From positions 1-26,051 of the IMG/VR virus record IMGVR_UViG_3300015186_000011: 26,051 bases of DNA. One strand, 5' to 3'. How positions within the stretch are numbered: the stretch's first letter is position 1; each line of letters begins with the position of its first letter. Position numbers and translations under genes: made by a program. Shown here in pieces: positions 1,602 through 24,518 of this stretch. The notes below the pieces were generated by a model that saw only the letters and a list, made by a program, of their open reading frames with translations, was not told the origin of the DNA and ran no database searches. The stretch comes from a virus. Lineage: Duplodnaviria; Heunggongvirae; Uroviricota; Caudoviricetes.

Positions 1602-1741
1602 GGTTTGCAATTACCAAGCGGAGTGCTTATATTTACCTTTGCGGTAAATTTACATCGCACTCCTCTTGTGCCATAGTAATCGAGCACTGGCAAAATCCAG
1701 TGCCGGGATTGGTCTCCCGGATTACTACAGAGGCACATATG

Positions 1742-1760
1742 CCGCATAAGCGGTTTTTTT
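1742..1760 (+). terminator. Weak putative intrinsic terminator (short CCGC/GCGG stem followed by T7 run)
   Basis: ccgcataagcggttttttt. The stem is only 4 bp, so this is low confidence. Confidence 0.3.
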
Positions 1761-1914
1761 ATGTGTAAAGCGCACCTATTCTATGGTGGGCTGTGTGGGG
1801 GCACCGAAAGGTGCGCCGGGTTCCTTTGTAGCCGGTAAGACCAACTCTGCACAGTTCACCACCATCTGATTGGTCTCAGCGGTGGTGATTAACCTAACTA
1901 CAAAGGTGATCGCC

Positions 1915-4802: not shown

Positions 4803-4877
4803 GTCGTTAATTCCTATACGTAGTTTTACGATACTGAAGCCCTGACGGTCTGGCCACCGTGGGGCTTCGCTGTTTTA
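4803..4877 (+). ncRNA. sar: Candidate sar-like antisense small RNA (~75 nt) complementary to the ant ribosome-binding region
   Basis: A promoter at 4768-4796 and an intrinsic terminator on the same strand (nested hairpin GAAGCCC..ACGGT-ctggcc-ACCGT..GGGCTTC at 4836-4868, then GCTGTTTTAT) bracket a ~75-nt transcript in the arc-ant intercistronic region. This mirrors the sar antisense RNA of P22 immI. Confidence 0.45.
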
Positions 4878-18981: not shown

Positions 18982-19274
18982 TCCTGTTCACTGGCCTCTT
19001 TGGCCATCTTCAAATACTGTTCAGGGCAATGCGCCATAACGCGCTGAAACAGTTCCAGCGCCAGATTGCGTTGCCCCTCATTAAATGCCATTGCCATAGC
19101 GTCCATCGGTGAGATAGCGGAAAACACACGGCCTTTCTCCAGCACCGACCAGACAACGCGACGCCCCTGTTCACTGCTCATGACAAAGCGAATGTCATCA
19201 ATTTCACGCTGTGCCATGTCACGTTGTTTACGGGCGTTTTCTTCTTTCAGTTGATCATCTTCGTAATCTGTCAT
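18978..19274 (-). CDS. Hypothetical small protein (98 aa) between portal and scaffold genes
   Basis: Start overlaps the portal stop and the stop overlaps the scaffold start; unknown function. Confidence 0.45.
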   Translation of the reverse strand: MTDYEDDQLKEENARKQRDMAQREIDDIRFVMSSEQGRRVVWSVLEKGRVFSAISPMDAMAMAFNEGQRNLALELFQRVMAHCPEQYLKMAKEASEQE

Positions 19275-20950
19275 TGTGATTGCCCACCCTGACCACTAAC
19301 TGCATTCGCCATAGCTGACAAAACACTCGGATCCGAAGTTTTAGCTTCGCTTAGCGTCTTGGCGCCCTGTGCCGCCGCCATTCCCATCGCCATCATTTGT
19401 TGCTGCTGTTGCTGCTGTGCCCGTTGCTGGCGAGCCTGCTCAACCTGTTCCTGCGGAACAATGACGGTTGGAGACACTCCGGACATATCAGCGAATGCAT
19501 CGATCGCCTGATCAACGTTGAGTTTGTCGAGAGCTTCTGGTTTCGCTTGCGCAAGTTGACCAATGAAGTTGACCGTAGACGCCAGACTGGACAGGCCGAT
19601 AGACTTCTGCGCCTGAGCCATGACGGAAATGTATTCGACCTTCAGGGGCATACCTTCCATCGCGTCAGGCGGTGGCGGCAGCATGTTTTTACGCACCATC
19701 ATCGAGAAAGCGCGGTCAATGAGAGGATTAAGACATTCGTCGTTCAGACGCTCCAGAACCGGCCCCAACATCAGAAGTTTTTCTTCTTTCATTTCGATCA
19801 CCGCTTCAACAGGCATCGAGCGGGTATTGATGTTCTGCAACATCATGAACAGATCGACAAAGTAGGCGCTGTTAATGATTTGACGAGTGTCCTGAATGTC
19901 TGCCACCAAATCTGCTGTACTGGGGTTAACCAGATAAGCAGGCCTGAAGCCATCCTGACCAGTAATCTGATCGATATACGTGATGTCGCCAGGAAGAAGG
20001 GAGGCGCGCTGATTCTTGAGGGAAGTCGGAGCAACCATCGGCGGATTGGTGGCTTTATCAATCAACTGCGACTTGCGCTTCTGGAGAAGCTGCAATGCCT
20101 TAACAGGTCCAAGCGCCAGCATACCCGGGCATGATGATCCATAAACATCTTCGCCATTAACTTCCCAGCGCGGAGCCATAATTGGAAACTCATCAAATCC
20201 GGACTCACGCAACAACTTGTCGTTATCGCCACCAACCTCGTAATAAACCGATTTGAATGGCTTGTTCTTGCTATCCAGCTTCGATGTATCGCGGTCAATG
20301 TTCGGGTAAACCGAATGCATCACGTCAATCCACTTCTCGTAGTTGCCGCTTTCCCACATGCTTTTTACGGATTCGCTGACGTTATTTAGCCCGAACTCCT
20401 GAACAAGCTGACGAACAGTCATAGAGAACTTGCGAAAACAGGTGTCAACACTGCCACGAGGTGAGTTAGCCAGGTAGTAACTGCCTATCGGGAATGGCAT
20501 TGTGCGAATGATGTCCTCGTCATCCTCCAGCACTGCCATTGCACCAGTGCTGTATGTGCCGAGGCTTCCGTATAACTGCGGAAGAGACTGGTAGAGATTC
20601 GACTTATTGAACATATCGTTCATGCGGTTCTGAACTGCCTCAAGCCACAACTTAACAGGGCCATAATCCATCATTTCAGGATCTGGCGTAGCCAGGCGAA
20701 ACCACGGACGCGCGGGGCTTGTGATGCCTGACATCATGCCGCTGGCGAGAGTGCGCGCCGCCATAGTCCCGGTCGAATCAATAATGCGTGTATTGCGCCG
20801 ATCGTTACGGTTGGCCTCAGAAGTCAGAAAGCGGGAACCACGCGGGTTGATGTAATCACTCAACTCGCGCCAGTGCGGCTCGAACGACTGACGCTCGCTT
20901 TCAAGTTGTGCGAACTGTTTGTTCAATCGCTCTTTAGTTGTTTCCGCCAT
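19271..20950 (-). CDS. Portal (head-to-tail connector) protein, podovirus type (559 aa)
   Basis: Size, position downstream of terminase, and Gln-rich C-terminal tail (QQRAQQQQQQQMMAMGMAAAQG). RBS GGAG 9 nt upstream of the ATG at 20950. Confidence 0.7.
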   Translation of the reverse strand: MAETTKERLNKQFAQLESERQSFEPHWRELSDYINPRGSRFLTSEANRNDRRNTRIIDSTGTMAARTLASGMMSGITSPARPWFRLATPDPEMMDYGPVKLWLEAVQNRMNDMFNKSNLYQSLPQLYGSLGTYSTGAMAVLEDDEDIIRTMPFPIGSYYLANSPRGSVDTCFRKFSMTVRQLVQEFGLNNVSESVKSMWESGNYEKWIDVMHSVYPNIDRDTSKLDSKNKPFKSVYYEVGGDNDKLLRESGFDEFPIMAPRWEVNGEDVYGSSCPGMLALGPVKALQLLQKRKSQLIDKATNPPMVAPTSLKNQRASLLPGDITYIDQITGQDGFRPAYLVNPSTADLVADIQDTRQIINSAYFVDLFMMLQNINTRSMPVEAVIEMKEEKLLMLGPVLERLNDECLNPLIDRAFSMMVRKNMLPPPPDAMEGMPLKVEYISVMAQAQKSIGLSSLASTVNFIGQLAQAKPEALDKLNVDQAIDAFADMSGVSPTVIVPQEQVEQARQQRAQQQQQQQMMAMGMAAAQGAKTLSEAKTSDPSVLSAMANAVSGQGGQSQ

Positions 20951-20964
20951 TTCAATGACTCCGG

Positions 20965-21171
20965 TTACTGACCAAGCAGCGTTTTACCGCTGGTATTAGC
21001 GGTTGATGTGTCGCCCTGAGAACCGGTAAGCAGCGTAGAACTACGACCAGCAGCAGCGCGACGGCGACGTGTTTCTTCGTCGCGGGCATCAACAACGGCG
21101 GCATCCTGCTCCTGTGGTGCTGCCTGAACTTCTGGTGTTGCAGGCACTGATGGTGAGCTACCCATGCACAT
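20965..21171 (-). CDS. Hypothetical small protein (68 aa) directly upstream of the portal gene
   Basis: ATG at 21171 within CGGAGTCATTGAT-ATG; the portal gene has a near-identical initiation region CGGAGTCATTGAA-ATG. Low-complexity acidic/Arg-rich product, so coding status is uncertain. Confidence 0.35.
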   Translation of the reverse strand: MCMGSSPSVPATPEVQAAPQEQDAAVVDARDEETRRRRAAAGRSSTLLTGSQGDTSTANTSGKTLLGQ

Positions 21172-21197
21172 ATCAATGACTCCGTACGCAATTAAAT

Positions 21198-21277
21198 TAT
21201 TACCAATTTAACCACATATGATTTATTTATCGTAGAAGGTTGACATTTGACGCGTGAATTATTACCTTTCAGGTAAC
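21198..21277 (-). promoter_or_regulatory. Conserved bipartite upstream element (copy B) ahead of the portal operon
   Basis: Plus-strand tattacc 21198-21204, aaccacatatg 21210-21220, tattacctttcaggtaa 21260-21276. Same elements and order as 1201-1268 upstream of the tailspike gene. Confidence 0.5.
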
Positions 21278-21598
21278 TAAAGAGCTCATTCCGGCTACTA
21301 ACCTGACTGGCTTGTCGTTAAATTGAACAGGTGGAGTGAGATTTTATTTTGAGCAGTACGGCGTATGGCACATGCGCCGATAGCGGTCTGGATACGTTTA
21401 AGGGGCACCCTCCCTTGCTCGGGCAAACGAACCAGGTAGCCGGAATGTGCAAGTCGAGCGGTTTTATTCCGCGCACGGGGATTCACCATCCCGGCGATTC
21501 GGTGTGACGCCTCGGAAGAGACGAGGGTACAACGATGAGAGCATTTATGGAGCCGCGACAAAGTGTGGCGCCTTAACAGGCTAAGTGCTCTCAGCGTT

Positions 21599-21675
21599 GT
21601 GGCATTAGCTCAGTTGGACAGAGCAACCGCCTTCTAAGCGGTTGGTCGCAGGTTCGAATCCTGCATGCCACGCCA
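21599..21675 (+). tRNA. tRNA-Arg, anticodon UCU (reads AGA), with encoded CCA
   Basis: Cloverleaf read by hand: acceptor GTGGCAT/ATGCCAC, D-arm GCTC..GAGC, anticodon stem ACCGC/GCGGT with loop CTTCTAA (anticodon TCT), T-arm GCAGG-TTCGAAT-CCTGC, discriminator G and CCA. Acceptor stem differs from host argU as I recall it, consistent with a phage-borne copy. Confidence 0.8.
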
Positions 21676-21718
21676 GAATCACGCCTAAGGACCGTGATAC
21701 CAGAAGTTCCAGGTGCTT

Positions 21719-21761
21719 GGCGGTGATGGTTTCCCTTGAAGGACTATCACCGCCCTTTTTA
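21719..21761 (+). terminator. Rho-independent terminator downstream of the tRNA
   Basis: GGCGGTGAT...ATCACCGCC stem (9 bp) followed by CTTTTT. Confidence 0.6.
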
Positions 21762-21838
21762 CAGCAGGACGCCATTGCGATGACTTCATGCTGTAAACCC
21801 GTACAGCCACGGAAGGCAGAACTCATTGCTTCCAGTTC

Positions 21839-21862
21839 GCCCGGTTCGCCGGGCATTTTTTT
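21839..21862 (+). terminator. Rho-independent terminator-like hairpin immediately upstream of the Gp49-like gene RBS
   Basis: GCCCGG-ttcg-CCGGGC followed by ATTTTTTT; the AAGGTGAG RBS of the next gene starts right after the U-tract. Confidence 0.6.
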
Positions 21863-21878
21863 AAGGTGAGATTAGACT

Positions 21879-22250
21879 ATGAGTGACAAAGACATTGAAT
21901 CTGAAATTCAGGCTAAAGGTTTAGCCGCGCCGCGCGTTACGCCAGACCATATCGAGAGCATTATTGCTCAGGAGGCATATTTCACAGCAGAAGATGGTGT
22001 CTTTGGCGTAGCCATAAAAGCGAAACATACTGGCGGAGAGGTAAACTACCAGCCGCACGAATCACTTTCTCTGCTGACTTTCTGCGTTCTGGTGCTGCGC
22101 AACGGCTTCACCGTCACCGGAGAGAGCGCCTGTGCAAGCCCGGAAAACTTTGATGCGGAAATTGGTCGGAAGATTGCCCGGCAGAATGCTGTAAACAAAA
22201 TCTGGATGCTTGAAGGTTACTTGCTGAAGCAGAAGTTAAGCGAGCAATAA
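21879..22250 (+). CDS. Phage Gp49 / Sf6 gene-66 family protein (123 aa)
   Basis: MSDKDIESEIQAKGL...LSLLTFCVLVLRNGFTVTGESACASPENFDAEIGRKIARQNAVNKIW matches my recollection of this conserved small phage protein family. Confidence 0.6.
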   Translation: MSDKDIESEIQAKGLAAPRVTPDHIESIIAQEAYFTAEDGVFGVAIKAKHTGGEVNYQPHESLSLLTFCVLVLRNGFTVTGESACASPENFDAEIGRKIARQNAVNKIWMLEGYLLKQKLSEQ

Positions 22251-22253
22251 CAC

Positions 22254-22267
22254 CGTGACATGTCACA
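22254..22267. promoter_or_regulatory. Copy 2 of the 14-bp palindromic motif CGTGACATGTCACA
   Basis: Exact 14-mer starting 4 bp after the Gp49-like stop codon and just before the terminator hairpin. Confidence 0.6.
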
Positions 22268-22270
22268 AAC

Positions 22271-22298
22271 AGCCAGCCGATGAGCTGGCTTTGTTTTA
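22271..22298 (+). terminator. Rho-independent terminator (AGCCAGC-cgatga-GCTGGCT then TTGTTTTA), partly bidirectional
   Basis: 7-bp perfect stem with a U-run on the plus strand and an A-rich tract upstream; sits between the convergent Gp49-like and terminase large subunit genes. Confidence 0.65.
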
Positions 22299-22340
22299 TC
22301 CTCACCAGAGGATATCTCCGTCATTATCCCCGCTAACGGA

Positions 22341-23816
22341 TTAAGCATAGGGATCGTAATCTGTAATGGCCTTGCCTTGCTGGTTCTGCTGCCCGGGAAT
22401 TCGCAGACGCTTAGACACAGGGAACGCAAACGTCAGCAGTAGCGCATCGCCTTTACCCGGCGAACGCCCAAGCCGCTCCTTGATATCTTCCTTCGGTTCG
22501 ATAACGATTTTACCGTCCACTCGAACTTTGTACTCTGCCGCCGACAGGTCGTCCGCTGTTTCCTGGTCATCCAGCATGCCGCCCAGCCTCAGCCATGTCT
22601 TGCATGAGTTGAACATCTCCCCACGCTTGTTGAGCATCTGCGGGTCAGTAGACGCGCCACCGAACGGAACAAGTTGCCATGTGCGCCCCCAACCGTCACC
22701 GATTGACTTCAGCCCGGTACCGTAACCGAAGTCGATGAACACCGCGTCAGCCTGATACTGGTCTTCAAAGTCAGCGATACGCTTTGCCATAATCAGATCG
22801 TCAGTGGTCTTGTTGCCGGTCCACAGCACCTTACTGTGCAGCCCCTGCCGCAGATATATCACCGCGTCATCAACACCGGAGTATGCCGGGTCAACGCCGA
22901 TTATCACCGGAGCATGTGCAACCTGCGCAGCGGTGACCACCCGTTTCATTGCCTCGTCAGTAAGTCCGGTAGGGATAAACTGCAATTCAGATGCATCCGG
23001 GAATATGCCGCGCACACGGATTTTAACGAAGTCGCTATCTTCCCCGTAGTCATCAACCCATTTCTGCAACTGCTGTTTGTTAGTGCCTTCCACCGTCCGG
23101 CTGTCAATCTGCGCAGTTTTCCAGCGGTGTTTATATTTGCGGAAACATTCGCGGAAACGTCCGGTATTACGCGTCGGGTTTCCGAACGCCACCCAGATAA
23201 TCTCAGTGTCTTCGTCCGTTAGCGCACCCTCGGCAACTTCCCACACCAGATCCGCAATGTTCGACGCTTCATCGAATACCACAATGATGCGTTTGCGCTC
23301 GTTGTGTAGTCCGGCGAATGCCTCAGTGTTGTGCTCAGACCAGGGGATTGCGTCAGCTCGCCACCGCTTGTCGTGTCCAGGATCATTGCTGTACATCGCG
23401 GTAGCGGTACAGGTAAACCAGTCTTTCGTGATAGCAAGGTTCGACCACTTGATAATTTCCGGCCAGGTCTTCGTTCGTAGCTGGTTGTCGGTGTTGGCGG
23501 TCACCACAACCTTACAATCCTCGCAAGTGGACATGCCCCAGTTGATCAGCATTGAGATGAATGCGGATTTACCAATACCGTGACCAGAAGCACGTGCCAG
23601 CATAAGCGGCTGATATCGCGTCTCTGGATTCTGCAGGTGATCACGTATCTCTCGGAACGCATCAGCCTGCCATTGACGTGGGCCGGTAGCATGTGCCAGT
23701 TCAGTCCCCTCTTCCCCCCACGGGAACGCATAGAGGGCATAGCCAAGCGGATCGTGAGTGAACCCTGCAATATCCTCGATCAACTGCTCTTCAGGAGATA
23801 ACGCTGTATCTGTCAC
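22341..23816 (-). CDS. Terminase large subunit (491 aa)
   Basis: Size and order (after the small subunit, before portal); N-terminal ATPase-like region and C-terminal nuclease-like region with conserved acidic residues (VVFDEASN, IIGVDPAYSG). Confidence 0.8.
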   Translation of the reverse strand: MTDTALSPEEQLIEDIAGFTHDPLGYALYAFPWGEEGTELAHATGPRQWQADAFREIRDHLQNPETRYQPLMLARASGHGIGKSAFISMLINWGMSTCEDCKVVVTANTDNQLRTKTWPEIIKWSNLAITKDWFTCTATAMYSNDPGHDKRWRADAIPWSEHNTEAFAGLHNERKRIIVVFDEASNIADLVWEVAEGALTDEDTEIIWVAFGNPTRNTGRFRECFRKYKHRWKTAQIDSRTVEGTNKQQLQKWVDDYGEDSDFVKIRVRGIFPDASELQFIPTGLTDEAMKRVVTAAQVAHAPVIIGVDPAYSGVDDAVIYLRQGLHSKVLWTGNKTTDDLIMAKRIADFEDQYQADAVFIDFGYGTGLKSIGDGWGRTWQLVPFGGASTDPQMLNKRGEMFNSCKTWLRLGGMLDDQETADDLSAAEYKVRVDGKIVIEPKEDIKERLGRSPGKGDALLLTFAFPVSKRLRIPGQQNQQGKAITDYDPYA

Positions 23817-24409
23817 TGATTACCATCCTGACGTTCTTTGAGTCGCTTCCTGGCTGCCGCTATGCGATCAGCAATTGTCACATTCACATTAACATCCAGG
23901 CGTTCTTTGAATGCGTTGACGTCGACGTGCTTACCAATCAGTTCGAGGTTCTTCACCTTGTCAGGCCATTTAATTTTTTTGAGGATTGTCTCTATCGAAT
24001 CCTCGTTCATGTTCATGATGGTCGATGACAGATCAAAGCCACTAAGCGTAGTGCGCCAGATTTTCGGCCACTCGCGGATTGGCTTAAGGCTCCCATCGTC
24101 GTTGAGGATATCAATCACGTCCATCTGGTCGATCTCCACCAGGCGCATGAGAACGTAATCGGCACTGACGCGCATTCGTTTGTTGCGCTCCTCCATCAAC
24201 TCGGCAATCCGTTTTTGAATGCGTTCATCGCGCATCATGACACTGGCTTTAACTGCCGCTGTATTTGGGGAGAATCCTGCGTTAATCGCTGCCTGAGTCT
24301 GGTTTTCAGGCGTTTTGATGTATGACTGGCAATAAGCCTCCTGCATTGCGGTTAGTGGCTTAAATTGCGTTGATTTGCGTTTATAGGTTTTAGGTTCAGC
24401 AGGCATCAT
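23813..24409 (-). CDS. Terminase small subunit (~198 aa, Terminase_2-like)
   Basis: Probable start is the ATG pair MMPAEP.. at 24409 with a GGTGG RBS (track ORF extends to 24487). AINAGFSPNTAAVKASVMMRDERIQKRIAEL resembles the small-terminase HTH region. Stop overlaps the large subunit start. Confidence 0.7.
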   Translation of the reverse strand: MMPAEPKTYKRKSTQFKPLTAMQEAYCQSYIKTPENQTQAAINAGFSPNTAAVKASVMMRDERIQKRIAELMEERNKRMRVSADYVLMRLVEIDQMDVIDILNDDGSLKPIREWPKIWRTTLSGFDLSSTIMNMNEDSIETILKKIKWPDKVKNLELIGKHVDVNAFKERLDVNVNVTIADRIAAARKRLKERQDGNQ

Positions 24410-24451
24410 AACCACCCTGGTAATTGTTACCGTTGTGGTAATAGTACCATG

Positions 24452-24478
24452 CAAAATAAAGCCGCCATAGTTGGCGGC
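24452..24478 (-). terminator. Rho-independent terminator upstream of the terminase genes (tR'-like position)
   Basis: Minus strand GCCGCCA-acta-TGGCGGC followed by TTTATTTTG, between the 115-aa zinc-ribbon gene and the small terminase gene. Confidence 0.65.
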
Positions 24479-24518
24479 AGTATTCAAAACCCATCAAATT
24501 CATCATGCATAATCTACT

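What the first reader, a model, noticed from the sequence alone, without database searches (positions are those of the whole stretch)
21290..22303. Opposite-strand insertion between terminase and portal: structured leader, tRNA-Arg(UCU), two terminators, Gp49-like gene
The terminase and portal genes are usually adjacent and co-transcribed. Here about 1.1 kb of plus-strand cargo interrupts them: a phage-borne tRNA-Arg reading the rare AGA codon, followed by two tandem intrinsic terminators, the second abutting the RBS of the Gp49-like gene. That arrangement implies the Gp49-like gene is expressed by read-through or antitermination. The interruption also means the portal operon needs its own promoter, which fits the conserved upstream element at 21198-21277.
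Basis: partly seen in the sequence, partly recalled or inferred. Interest (0 to 1): 0.5.

Follow-up and report, generated by a model that had tools for sequence, protein, structure and literature searches.

The report
Early phage operon: leader RNA, tRNA, sponge
Between the terminase and portal genes of this phiV10-like E. coli prophage lies a repressor-controlled unit holding a real tRNA-Arg, two terminators and an anti-CBASS (Acb4-family) gene; its "structured leader" belongs to a widespread, unannotated pseudoknotted phage RNA also found in phage P1 and in lambda-like phages.

Summary
They are tRNA-Arg(UCU) at 21599-21675 (73 bits), two terminator hairpins (21719-21754, 21839-21854), a third after the gene, and a PF13876 gene at 21879-22250.

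The arrangement is not a private insertion. It is the standard terL/portal gap of Uetakeviruses (98.7% identical to phiV10), and public records already annotate the tRNA and the Gp49 gene.

Three things are new here:
- **Promoter.** TTGACA-17-TACCTT overlaps a phage-repressor operator, TTACC-N5-GGTAA. That palindrome occurs 15 times in the related prophage against 0.7 expected. The unit is therefore probably early and lytic, not expressed in the lysogen.
- **Cargo.** PF13876 is now the Acb4 anti-CBASS sponge family. A Klebsiella relative carries a Tad2-like gene in the same slot.
- **Leader.** Bases 21357-21602 belong to a covariation-supported RNA with five helices and two pseudoknots. It has no Rfam match and no annotation. 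It occurs in 1840 of 5426 complete E. coli genomes, in P1 between trnI and ban, and in PL leaders of lambdoid phages with no annotated N.

The tRNA is an optional passenger in this RNA. I favour a cis read-through (put-like) role for the RNA, but that is inferred. A free-standing early ncRNA is nearly as likely.

The parts
21190..21277 (.). Control region, nearly invariant across Uetakeviruses, between the gp3-like gene and the + strand unit
   Evidence: Alignment A2 of 8 phages, mostly invariant columns
21240..21268 (+). Sigma-70-type promoter TTGACA-17 nt-TACCTT; inferred start near 21275-21277
   Evidence: Best candidate in 21150-21330, 9/12 with A2 and T6; TTGAC invariant in A2
21262..21276 (.). 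Operator palindrome TTACCTTTCAGGTAA overlapping the -10 element and the start site
   Evidence: 6 copies in the window against 0.39 expected. 15 in the related prophage against 0.7 expected, on both sides of its repressor gene. The homologous site is labelled 'repressor' in the epsilon15 record
21277..21356 (+). Variable 5' leader. 21287-21298 (CATTCCGGCTAC) is a perfect complement of core bases 21436-21447
   Evidence: Sequence; pairing appears in the MFE fold; the 5' partner is absent from the other Uetakevirus lineages
21357..21530 (+). Conserved RNA core. P1 21359-66/21372-79; PK1 21368-71 with 21447-50; P2 21383-90/21433-40; P3 21478-81/21489-92; PK2 21484-87 with 21501-04; P4 21510-14/21522-26
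   Evidence: nhmmer profile hit, E = 9e-34. 94.5% of cells paired and 12 pairs with compensatory change, against 24-46% paired when slid. No Rfam match at E<=10
21537..21602 (+). P5 stem GAGAGCA (21537-43) / TGCTCTC (21586-92) around a variable insert, then GTTGTGG, which overlaps the first 4 nt of the tRNA
   Evidence: A 7-bp stem is found in 110/153 loci with at least 7 compensatory variants and inserts of 9-376 nt
21599..21675 (+). tRNA-Arg, anticodon UCU, CCA encoded
   Evidence: ARAGORN; Rfam RF00005 at 73.3 bits; present in 25/47 Uetakevirus-type loci
21678..21698 (+). Conserved hairpin ATCACG-CCTAAGGAC-CGTGAT
   Evidence: Conserved in A2 in phages with and without the tRNA; also present in lambdoid L063
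21719..21763 (+). Intrinsic terminator T1 (14-pair stem, CTTTTTAC)
   Evidence: -22.0 kcal/mol; stem covaries in Tyrion and mEp460
21764..21838 (+). Highly conserved block between the terminators (ACGCCATTGCGATGAC ... GCTGTAAACC; hairpin GGAAGGCA/TGCTTCC); function unknown
   Evidence: Long runs of invariant columns in A2, retained even in epsilon15
21839..21861 (+). Intrinsic terminator T2 (GCCCGG-TTCG-CCGGGC, then ATTTTTTT) abutting the RBS
   Evidence: -11.2 kcal/mol
21863..22250 (+). RBS AAGGTGA and a 123-aa Acb4-family (PF13876, 'Gp49-like') gene, 21879-22250
   Evidence: Pfam 121 bits against a cut-off of 27. Weak match to PDB 9e4w Acb4. PF13876 is defined as the Acb4 family in PMC11722364
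22271..22297 (+). Terminator between the convergent Acb4-like and terL genes; its tail is weak on the - strand
   Evidence: annotated as a terminator in the phiV10 record

Best explanation
This is the accessory early transcription unit of a phiV10/epsilon15-type (Uetakevirus) prophage. A sigma-70 promoter (21240-21268) is overlapped by the phage repressor's operator. The unit should therefore be silent in the lysogen and fire on induction or infection.

The transcript begins with a leader of about 320 nt. The conserved part of that leader (21357-21602) is a pseudoknotted RNA of a widespread, so far unannotated family. tRNA-Arg(UCU) follows directly. I infer that RNase P cleavage at 21599 would release both the leader RNA and a tRNA that supplies the AGA codons the phage over-uses.

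Most transcripts should stop at T1 or T2. Only those that pass both reach the Acb4-family gene, a candidate sponge for CBASS cyclic-nucleotide signals. Related phages carry other cargo in this slot, including a Tad2-like anti-Thoeris gene.

I propose that the leader RNA acts in cis on the transcribing polymerase to raise read-through of T1 and T2. That would make it a functional analogue of HK022 put, not a relative of it.

Shown: the anatomy, the family memberships, the RNA structure and its distribution. Inferred: the timing, the processing, and above all the read-through role of the RNA. My probability for that last step alone is about 0.35-0.4.
For: - Anatomy.
- Repressor control: the operator is strongly over-represented and flanks the repressor gene. 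The epsilon15 record labels the same site as a repressor site.
- RNA structure: 6 helices, 94.5% of cells paired, 12 compensatory pairs, covariation score 0.219 against 0.10 when shuffled (0/500) and at most 0.061 when slid. Many G-U pairs fix the + strand. P5 also covaries.
- Independence from the tRNA: the core occurs without any tRNA in 74 of 112 loci.
- Position at the head of early operons in three unrelated lineages. In Uetakeviruses it sits in this gap. In at least 10 lambdoid immunity types it lies 200-350 nt after the cI-like gene, and in L063 about 45 nt after a lambda-PL-like promoter, TTGACC-17-GATACT. In P1 and P7 it sits in the C1-controlled ban operon between trnI and ban.
- The lambdoid carriers examined have no annotated or detectable N gene, as in HK022.
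- Terminator-like hairpins follow the core in 111/119 loci.
- No promoter-like site lies between T1 and the ATG.
- Acb4 and Tad2 cargo are.
Against: - No transcript data were available. The promoter has a weak -10 element (3/6).
- In the Uetakevirus and lambdoid contexts, T1 travels with the RNA as part of one module. That looks more like a self-contained RNA gene than an antiterminator. In the one lambdoid checked (mEp460), the rightward genes overlap, so it may need no antitermination beyond the module's own terminators.
- T1 has a long 14-pair stem. A 2023 NAR paper (title and abstract seen, not read) associates long stems with resistance to processive antitermination.
- Epsilon15 has lost the core but keeps T1, T2 and the Acb4-like gene.
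- There is no sequence similarity to the HK022 early region that was searched. The core is about 3 times longer than put.
- The Acb4 assignment rests on family membership. Binding was not tested for this protein.
Confidence: 0.55

Rival explanations
1. The leader is a free-standing early non-coding RNA gene that uses T1 as its own terminator and merely hosts the tRNA in a variable domain. It acts in trans, for example on a host protein or RNA, or as a decoy against a host defence. The Acb4-like gene is expressed only by passive leakage through T1 and T2.
For: - In the Uetakevirus and lambdoid contexts, the core, P5, the variable domain, the ATCACG hairpin and T1 move together as one module.
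- It is placed behind strong early promoters.
- RNase P processing at the tRNA would release a discrete RNA (sequence).
- The invariant loop sequences and two pseudoknots suggest a specific ligand or partner.
- Epsilon15 keeps the terminators and cargo without the core.
Against: - In P1/P7 the core has no strong terminator of its own and lies inside an operon about 100 nt before the ban start. My scan flags only a marginal -9.8 kcal/mol hairpin after it.
- It is always in the sense orientation within an operon leader. It was never seen as an isolated promoter-RNA-terminator cassette outside early operons.
- No target is known.
Confidence: 0.3
2. The structured region is only a tRNA precursor leader, a processing scaffold, or debris of decayed tRNA genes, with no function of its own.
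For: - tRNAs abut the core on either side: tRNA-Arg follows it here, and tRNA-Ile2(CAT) precedes it directly in P1.
- T-arm-like strings (GGGTTCGAATCCC, CTGGTTCAATTCCAG) occur in the P5 inserts of BUCT554 and SPN1S.
Against: - 74 of 112 loci have the core but no tRNA.
- The core keeps invariant loops and compensatory pairs over at least 12 genera, which decay products would not.
- ARAGORN and Rfam see nothing tRNA-like inside the window's core.
Confidence: 0.07
3. The leader is a ligand- or signal-sensing attenuator (riboswitch-like) that opens T1/T2 only under some condition, for example when a defence signal is present.
For: - A complex pseudoknotted fold with invariant unpaired bases lies upstream of terminators.
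- The downstream cargo binds immune nucleotides.
Against: - A variable domain or a whole tRNA (100-400 nt) separates the core from T1, so there is no overlapping expression platform.
- In P1 and the lambdoids the downstream genes are a helicase or ordinary early genes.
- No Rfam riboswitch matches.
Confidence: 0.05

Closest known systems
phiV10 / epsilon15 (Uetakevirus) terL-gp3 intergenic module
   Same: 98.7% identical over 1.5 kb to phiV10 and to the O157 typing phages 9 and 10. The order of tRNA-Arg, Sf6-gp66-like gene and terminator is the same. RefSeq annotates 'tRNA-Arg' and 'Gp49 family protein' in E. coli prophages.
   Different: Nothing is structurally different. The public records simply leave the leader RNA, T1, T2 and the promoter/operator unannotated. 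The phiV10 RefSeq record even places a spurious ORF antisense to the tRNA.
HK022 put RNAs (protein-independent processive antitermination)
   Same: A structured RNA sits in the leader of an early operon in lambdoid phages with no annotated N gene. It lies shortly after a PL-type promoter and upstream of intrinsic terminators (put properties from PMC9378689).
   Different: No sequence similarity to the HK022 early region searched. The core is about 175-245 nt with five helices and two pseudoknots, against about 70 nt and two stem-loops for put. It occurs as a single copy per phage, not an L/R pair. Activity is untested.
Acb4 anti-CBASS sponge family (PF13876; SPO1 Acb4, PDB 9e4w)
   Same: The 123-aa protein matches PF13876 at 121 bits and aligns to the Acb4 crystal sequence over 42 residues. 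The source paper defines PF13876 as the Acb4 family, and all eight homologues tested there bound 3'3'-cGAMP.
   Different: This particular protein was not tested. It has about 20 extra N-terminal residues before the domain. The direct match to SPO1 Acb4 is weak (E = 0.007).
Phage P1 ban operon (C1-controlled, with trnA, trnT and trnI)
   Same: A repressor-controlled early operon mixes tRNAs, non-coding stretches and genes. The same RNA core lies in the trnI-ban gap.
   Different: In P1 the core follows the tRNA, is truncated after P4, has no T1-type terminator and precedes a helicase gene.
rrn / lambda nut sites (boxA, boxB, boxC)
   Same: Units of stem plus G(U/C)GC(G/U)CU(U/C)(U/C)CAG-N-UGUGG recur in these leaders. 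By my recollection they resemble boxA UGCUCUUUAACAA followed by boxC UGUGUGGG. One relative (L094) has TGCTCTTTAACAA, which matches the boxA consensus as I recall it, right after the core. L038 has the near-match AGCTCTTTAATAA.
   Different: The window has only the half-match UGCUCUC, and it is base-paired in P5. The canonical boxA pattern was found in 1 locus of about 150 scanned.

Membership tests
tRNA (Rfam RF00005), isoacceptor Arg-UCU | Cloverleaf that scores above the covariance-model threshold | tested here: met
   73.3 bits against a gathering score of 29, full-length 1-71; ARAGORN call with anticodon TCT at position 35
tRNA (Rfam RF00005), isoacceptor Arg-UCU | Mature, aminoacylated product in cells | not testable with these tools
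   Needs a Northern blot or acylation assay. The encoded CCA and 7-bp acceptor stem are visible in the sequence
Intrinsic (Rho-independent) terminator | G+C-rich hairpin directly followed by a T-run | tested here: met
   T1, T2 and a third site pass the scan: 3 found against 1.3 expected. Energies are -22.0 and -11.2 kcal/mol for T1 and T2
Acb4 / PF13876 | Match to the family HMM above the curated cut-off | tested here: met
   121.3 bits against a cut-off of 27, profile positions 1-82 of 82
Acb4 / PF13876 | Tetramer that sequesters cyclic dinucleotides and blocks CBASS | not testable with these tools
   Shown for SPO1 Acb4 and eight homologues in PMC11722364, not for this protein
HK022 put RNA | About 70-nt two-stem-loop RNA related in sequence to putL/putR | tested here: not met
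   No BLAST match better than chance to HK022 23.0-32.0 kb. The core profile has no hit there. Size and fold differ
HK022 put RNA | Lies in an early-operon leader and confers terminator read-through in cis without protein factors | tested here: inconclusive
   The position criterion is met. Read-through activity cannot be tested with these tools
Any Rfam 15 family (for the leader) | Covariance-model match | tested here: not met
   No match in 21150-21598 even at E<=10; the only hits are the tRNA and noise over or after it
lambda nut / rrn antitermination site | Single-stranded boxA (GCUCUUUA-type, consensus from my memory) next to a boxB hairpin | tested here: not met
   The pattern [TC]GCTCTT[TA]A is absent from the window's leader. 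It was found in 1 related locus only
Protein-coding gene (phiV10p04, mEp460 gp37-type ORFs over the region) | Conserved reading frame | tested here: not met
   Homologues differ by indels of many lengths and by compensatory base-pair changes. The ORFs lie antisense to the tRNA and to the RNA. No Pfam or PHROG support was sought for them

The most novel reading that the evidence does not exclude
The conserved leader RNA is a new class of self-sufficient, polymerase-modifying antiterminator RNA. It would be a second, structurally unrelated solution to the problem that HK022 put solves. It has spread as a module among P1-like, N-less lambdoid and epsilon15-like phages, and sits in about a third of complete E. 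coli genomes.
Probability: 0.3. Interest if true: 0.8.

Novelty: new variant of a known kind. Interest (0 to 1): 0.62.

Why it matters
The tRNA, the terminators and the Gp49-like gene are ordinary and already present in public records.

What matters is the leader. It is an RNA of about 245 nt with two pseudoknots and strong covariation. It is present in phage P1, in many N-less lambda-like prophages (including Stx2-converting phages) and in epsilon15-like phages. It has no Rfam family and no annotation.

If it modifies RNA polymerase, it would explain how these N-less phages read through their early terminators. It would also add a second example to a mechanism known essentially from one phage. 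If instead it is a trans-acting early RNA, it is a very common unknown player in prophage induction in E. coli.

The locus also shows that known anti-defence sponge genes (Acb4, Tad2) sit behind a double terminator in a repressor-controlled early unit. That gives a concrete handle on how their dosage and timing are set.

Tried and rejected
- **Rfam.** Gathering and E<=10 searches gave nothing for the leader.
- **HK022 put homology.** BLAST with short words and a core profile against HK022 23-32 kb gave only chance matches. The HK022 record is too sparsely annotated to locate putL directly.
- **Literature.** Searches for put-like elements, N-independent antitermination, phiV10/epsilon15 tRNA and P1 trnI/ban found no description of this RNA. 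The P1 genome paper is not held.
- **RNAalifold's long-range alternative for P1.** It pairs GCACAU with AUGUGC. I rejected it as the main helix because the local hairpin has a 28:21 A-U/G-C compensatory pair. I kept 4 of those pairs as pseudoknot PK1, but they are invariant and therefore unproven.
- **First terminator counter.** It required perfect stems and was too strict, so I replaced it. The upstream 'control' stretch contains the cI terminator, so it is not a clean null.
- **Canonical boxA.** It is not a general feature; it was found in 1 locus.
- **Coding explanations** for the minus-strand ORFs were rejected (see the membership test).
- **Minus-strand promoter for gp3-portal.** Only weak 8/12 candidates were found, so this remains unresolved.
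- **Not done.** I did not build a covariance model.
Full report
**1. What is in the window**

The 26-kb window is a phiV10/epsilon15-type (Uetakevirus) prophage of E. coli. The 1.5 kb around the finding is 98.7% identical to phage phiV10 and up to 99.4% identical to E. coli chromosomes.

On the - strand lie terS (23813-24487, PF03592), terL (22341-23816), a 68-aa gp3-like ORF (20965-21171), portal (19271-20950, PF12236), a Bbp19-like gene and a GP7-type capsid gene.

Everything between 21172 and 22340 that can be assigned reads on the + strand.

**2. Check of the observation**

- ARAGORN finds a single tRNA in the window, tRNA-Arg(TCT) at 21599-21675. Rfam's tRNA model gives 73.3 bits, E = 1.6e-14. 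The CCA end is encoded.
- The terminator scan finds three + strand sites: 21719-21754, 21839-21854 and 22271-22290.
- The ORF 21879-22250 is PF13876 at E = 2.4e-35.
- The leader folds better than its shuffles, z = -3.5.

**3. The arrangement is the genus norm**

GenBank and RefSeq records for phiV10, the O157 typing phages and E. coli prophages already carry 'tRNA-Arg' and 'Gp49 family protein' at this position.

I aligned the terL/gp3 gap of eight Uetakeviruses. All share one plan:
- a nearly invariant control region of about 90 bp;
- a structured RNA;
- a slot that holds either tRNA-Arg or another variable domain;
- a conserved hairpin;
- T1;
- a highly conserved block;
- T2 abutting an RBS;
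- a variable cargo ORF.

Epsilon15 has lost most of the RNA and the tRNA but keeps T1, T2 and a Gp49-like gene. The tRNA is present in 25 of 47 Uetakevirus-type loci harvested from IMG/VR.

**4. Promoter and operator**

The best promoter candidate is TTGACA (21240-45), a 17-nt spacer, then TACCTT (21263-68) on the + strand.

The palindrome TTACCTTTCAGGTAA (21262-76) overlaps its -10 element and start site.
- TTACC-N5-GGTAA occurs 6 times in the window against 0.39 expected.
- It occurs 15 times in a 99.4%-identical complete prophage against 0.7 expected. Copies lie on both sides of the repressor gene and at the heads of several operons.
- The epsilon15 record labels the homologous site 'repressor'.

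I infer that the unit is repressed in the lysogen and expressed early after derepression. This inference rests on sequence only.

**5. The tRNA**

In that prophage, AGA makes up 6.95 and AGG 3.97 codons per 1000. The ten flanking host genes have 0.53 and 0. This fits the classical codon-supplementation role and expression during lytic growth.

**6. The cargo**

PF13876 was 'N4 Gp49 / Sf6 gp66, function unknown'. Chang et al. then showed that SPO1 Acb4 belongs to it, that it sequesters 3'3'-cGAMP as a tetramer, and that eight homologues all bind the signal (PMC11722364).

The window's protein also aligns weakly to the Acb4 crystal sequence 9e4w, E = 0.007.

In Klebsiella phage ST512-KPC3phi13.3 the same slot holds a Tad2-like (PF11195) protein. 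Other cargo classes include a 61-aa protein, a DUF551 protein and an HNH-like protein. The slot is therefore a variable accessory position that often holds anti-defence genes.

**7. The leader is a widespread RNA family**

BLAST of 21180-21600 showed that bases 21358-21600 are about 82% identical to a stretch in unrelated lambdoid phages: mEp460, cdtI, Stx2c phages, 2H10 and Ayreon.

The invariant 19-mer GGTAGCCGGAATGTGCAAG (21435-21453) retrieved at least 120 IMG/VR contigs. It also retrieved 24 places in species-representative genomes, all but two of them Enterobacterales, in 12 genera.

A 247-nt query matches 1840 of 5426 complete E. coli genomes. No annotated feature lies under any of the 40 sampled matches. 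554 places are on plasmids; those listed are about 90-105 kb, the size of P1-like phage-plasmids.

Three contexts emerge:
- (a) the Uetakevirus gap;
- (b) at least 10 different lambdoid immunity regions;
- (c) phages P1 and P7 themselves.

In context (b) the RNA lies 200-350 nt downstream of the cI-like gene on the same strand. In L063 it is about 45 nt after a lambda-type PL (TTGACC-17-GATACT) with operators. It is followed by terminator hairpins and then the early-left genes.

In context (c) the RNA fills the unannotated trnI-ban gap of the C1-controlled ban operon.

The lambdoid carriers examined have no annotated or PHROG-detectable N gene.

**8. Structure of the RNA**

I used 49 sequences less than 93% identical to one another (alignment A3). 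My model has P1, P2, P3 and P4 plus two loop-to-downstream pseudoknots:
- 94.5% of cells are paired, against 24-46% when the partners are slid.
- 12 pairs carry compensatory changes.
- The covariation score is 0.219, against 0.10 in shuffles (0/500) and at most 0.061 when slid.

PK2 has a C-G to A-U switch. PK1 is invariant, so it is unproven.

Frequent G-U pairs place the RNA on the + strand. A fifth stem, P5 (21537-43 / 21586-92), covaries in at least 7 variants around inserts of 9-376 nt. It is followed by GTTGTGG, whose last four bases are the first four of the tRNA.

In loci without a tRNA, the same GTGG...CCAC frame closes another multi-stem domain. The tRNA is therefore a passenger in a variable domain of the RNA.

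Rfam has no match. A profile of the core hits the window once and the whole prophage once.

**9. How it most likely works**

The shown facts are consistent with this sequence of events. The repressor leaves and sigma-70 RNAP starts near 21276. The leader RNA and the tRNA are made, and RNase P would separate them. T1 (-22 kcal/mol) and T2 stop most polymerases. The remainder translate the Acb4-like gene.

Two readings of the leader remain.

*Cis read-through.* The RNA sits at the head of early operons in three unrelated lineages whose only common partners are host factors. The lambdoid carriers lack N, as HK022 does. Terminator-like hairpins follow the core in 111 of 119 loci. In P1 it lies inside an operon without a strong terminator of its own. 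These points favour a cis, put-like effect on the polymerase.

*Free-standing ncRNA.* T1 travels with the RNA as one module. T1 has a long stem. In the one carrier checked (mEp460) the rightward genes overlap, so it may need no antitermination elsewhere. Epsilon15 lives without the core. These points favour an independent early ncRNA that simply uses strong early promoters.

I put the cis model at about 0.35-0.4 and the free ncRNA at about 0.3. The remainder goes to a processing-only or a sensing role.

**10. The portal promoter claim**

The conserved element is shared by divergent units. On the - strand only 8/12 promoter candidates exist.

However, an operator followed 32-44 nt later by ATGTGGTT recurs upstream of three rightward operons, including gp3-portal. 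Two operators also sit just before an internal ATG of terS.

Operon-by-operon, repressor-controlled promoters, as in P1, are therefore plausible. The terminator after terL has a poor tail on the - strand (sequence), so read-through from terL is not excluded either.

**11. Novelty**

The tRNA, terminators and gene are known. The functional label of the gene is recent but published. To the extent that Rfam 15, RefSeq and GenBank annotation and the searchable literature show, the RNA family is undescribed. I cannot exclude a description in papers that are not held here.

Noticed in passing
window 1684-1866 and 4804-4871: Rfam finds isrK (74.7 bits), C4 antisense RNA (78.6 bits) and sar RNA (44.8 bits). 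This looks like a P1/P22-type immI/antirepressor control region. Repressor-operator copies lie at 1253, 1633 and 2693.
   Followed up: no
L007 (NZ_CP101197 prophage), 15 sites; window 1253, 1633, 2693, 21262, 24409, 24427: The operator TTACC-N5-GGTAA is scattered over the whole prophage at the heads of many operons. This layout is reminiscent of the dispersed C1 operators of P1 rather than lambda's two operator clusters.
   Followed up: partly
window 24409-24441: Two operator copies lie inside the listed terS ORF (TTG start at 24487), immediately upstream of an internal ATG ('MMPAEPKT...'). The real terS start is probably there, preceded by its own repressor-controlled promoter.
   Followed up: partly
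window 21287-21298 and 21436-21447: In the phiV10 lineage only, the 5' leader carries a perfect 12-nt complement (CATTCCGGCTAC) of the invariant core segment GTAGCCGGAATG. The relative L007 keeps the pairing through a G-U. The pairing would compete with P2 and PK1 and might be a built-in switch.
   Followed up: partly
window 21764-21838: The stretch between T1 and T2 is among the most conserved in the whole gap (ACGCCATTGCGATGAC and GCTGTAAACC are invariant in 8 phages, including epsilon15). I found neither a promoter nor a convincing ORF there. Its function is unknown.
   Followed up: partly
L007 20445, 26413, 45638 (window equivalent about 21209-21216, - strand): The motif ATGTGGTT occurs three times. 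All copies are on the late-gene strand, each 32-44 nt after an operator and 25-70 nt before the first gene of a rightward operon. It could be a late or activator-dependent promoter element.
   Followed up: partly
L010 (BUCT554) and L013 (SPN1S), inserts inside the P5 stem: The variable inserts contain T-arm-like strings (GGGTTCGAATCCC; CTGGTTCAATTCCAG), although ARAGORN calls no tRNA there. They may be remnants of earlier tRNA passengers.
   Followed up: no
L032 3997-4154 and 4804-4959: One IMG/VR lambdoid contig carries two tandem copies of the RNA core about 650 nt apart in the same orientation.
   Followed up: no
L094 and L038 (alignment A3, just 3' of the core): In these two lambdoid leaders the P5 region is replaced by a hairpin followed by TGCTCTTTAACAA or AGCTCTTTAATAA. 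By my recollection the first is an exact rrn-type boxA and the second a near-match.
   Followed up: partly
L001 3706-3957 (phiV10p04); L005 2943-3311 (mEp460 gp37): Public records annotate hypothetical proteins antisense to the tRNA or across the RNA core. These are very probably spurious ORF calls.
   Followed up: partly
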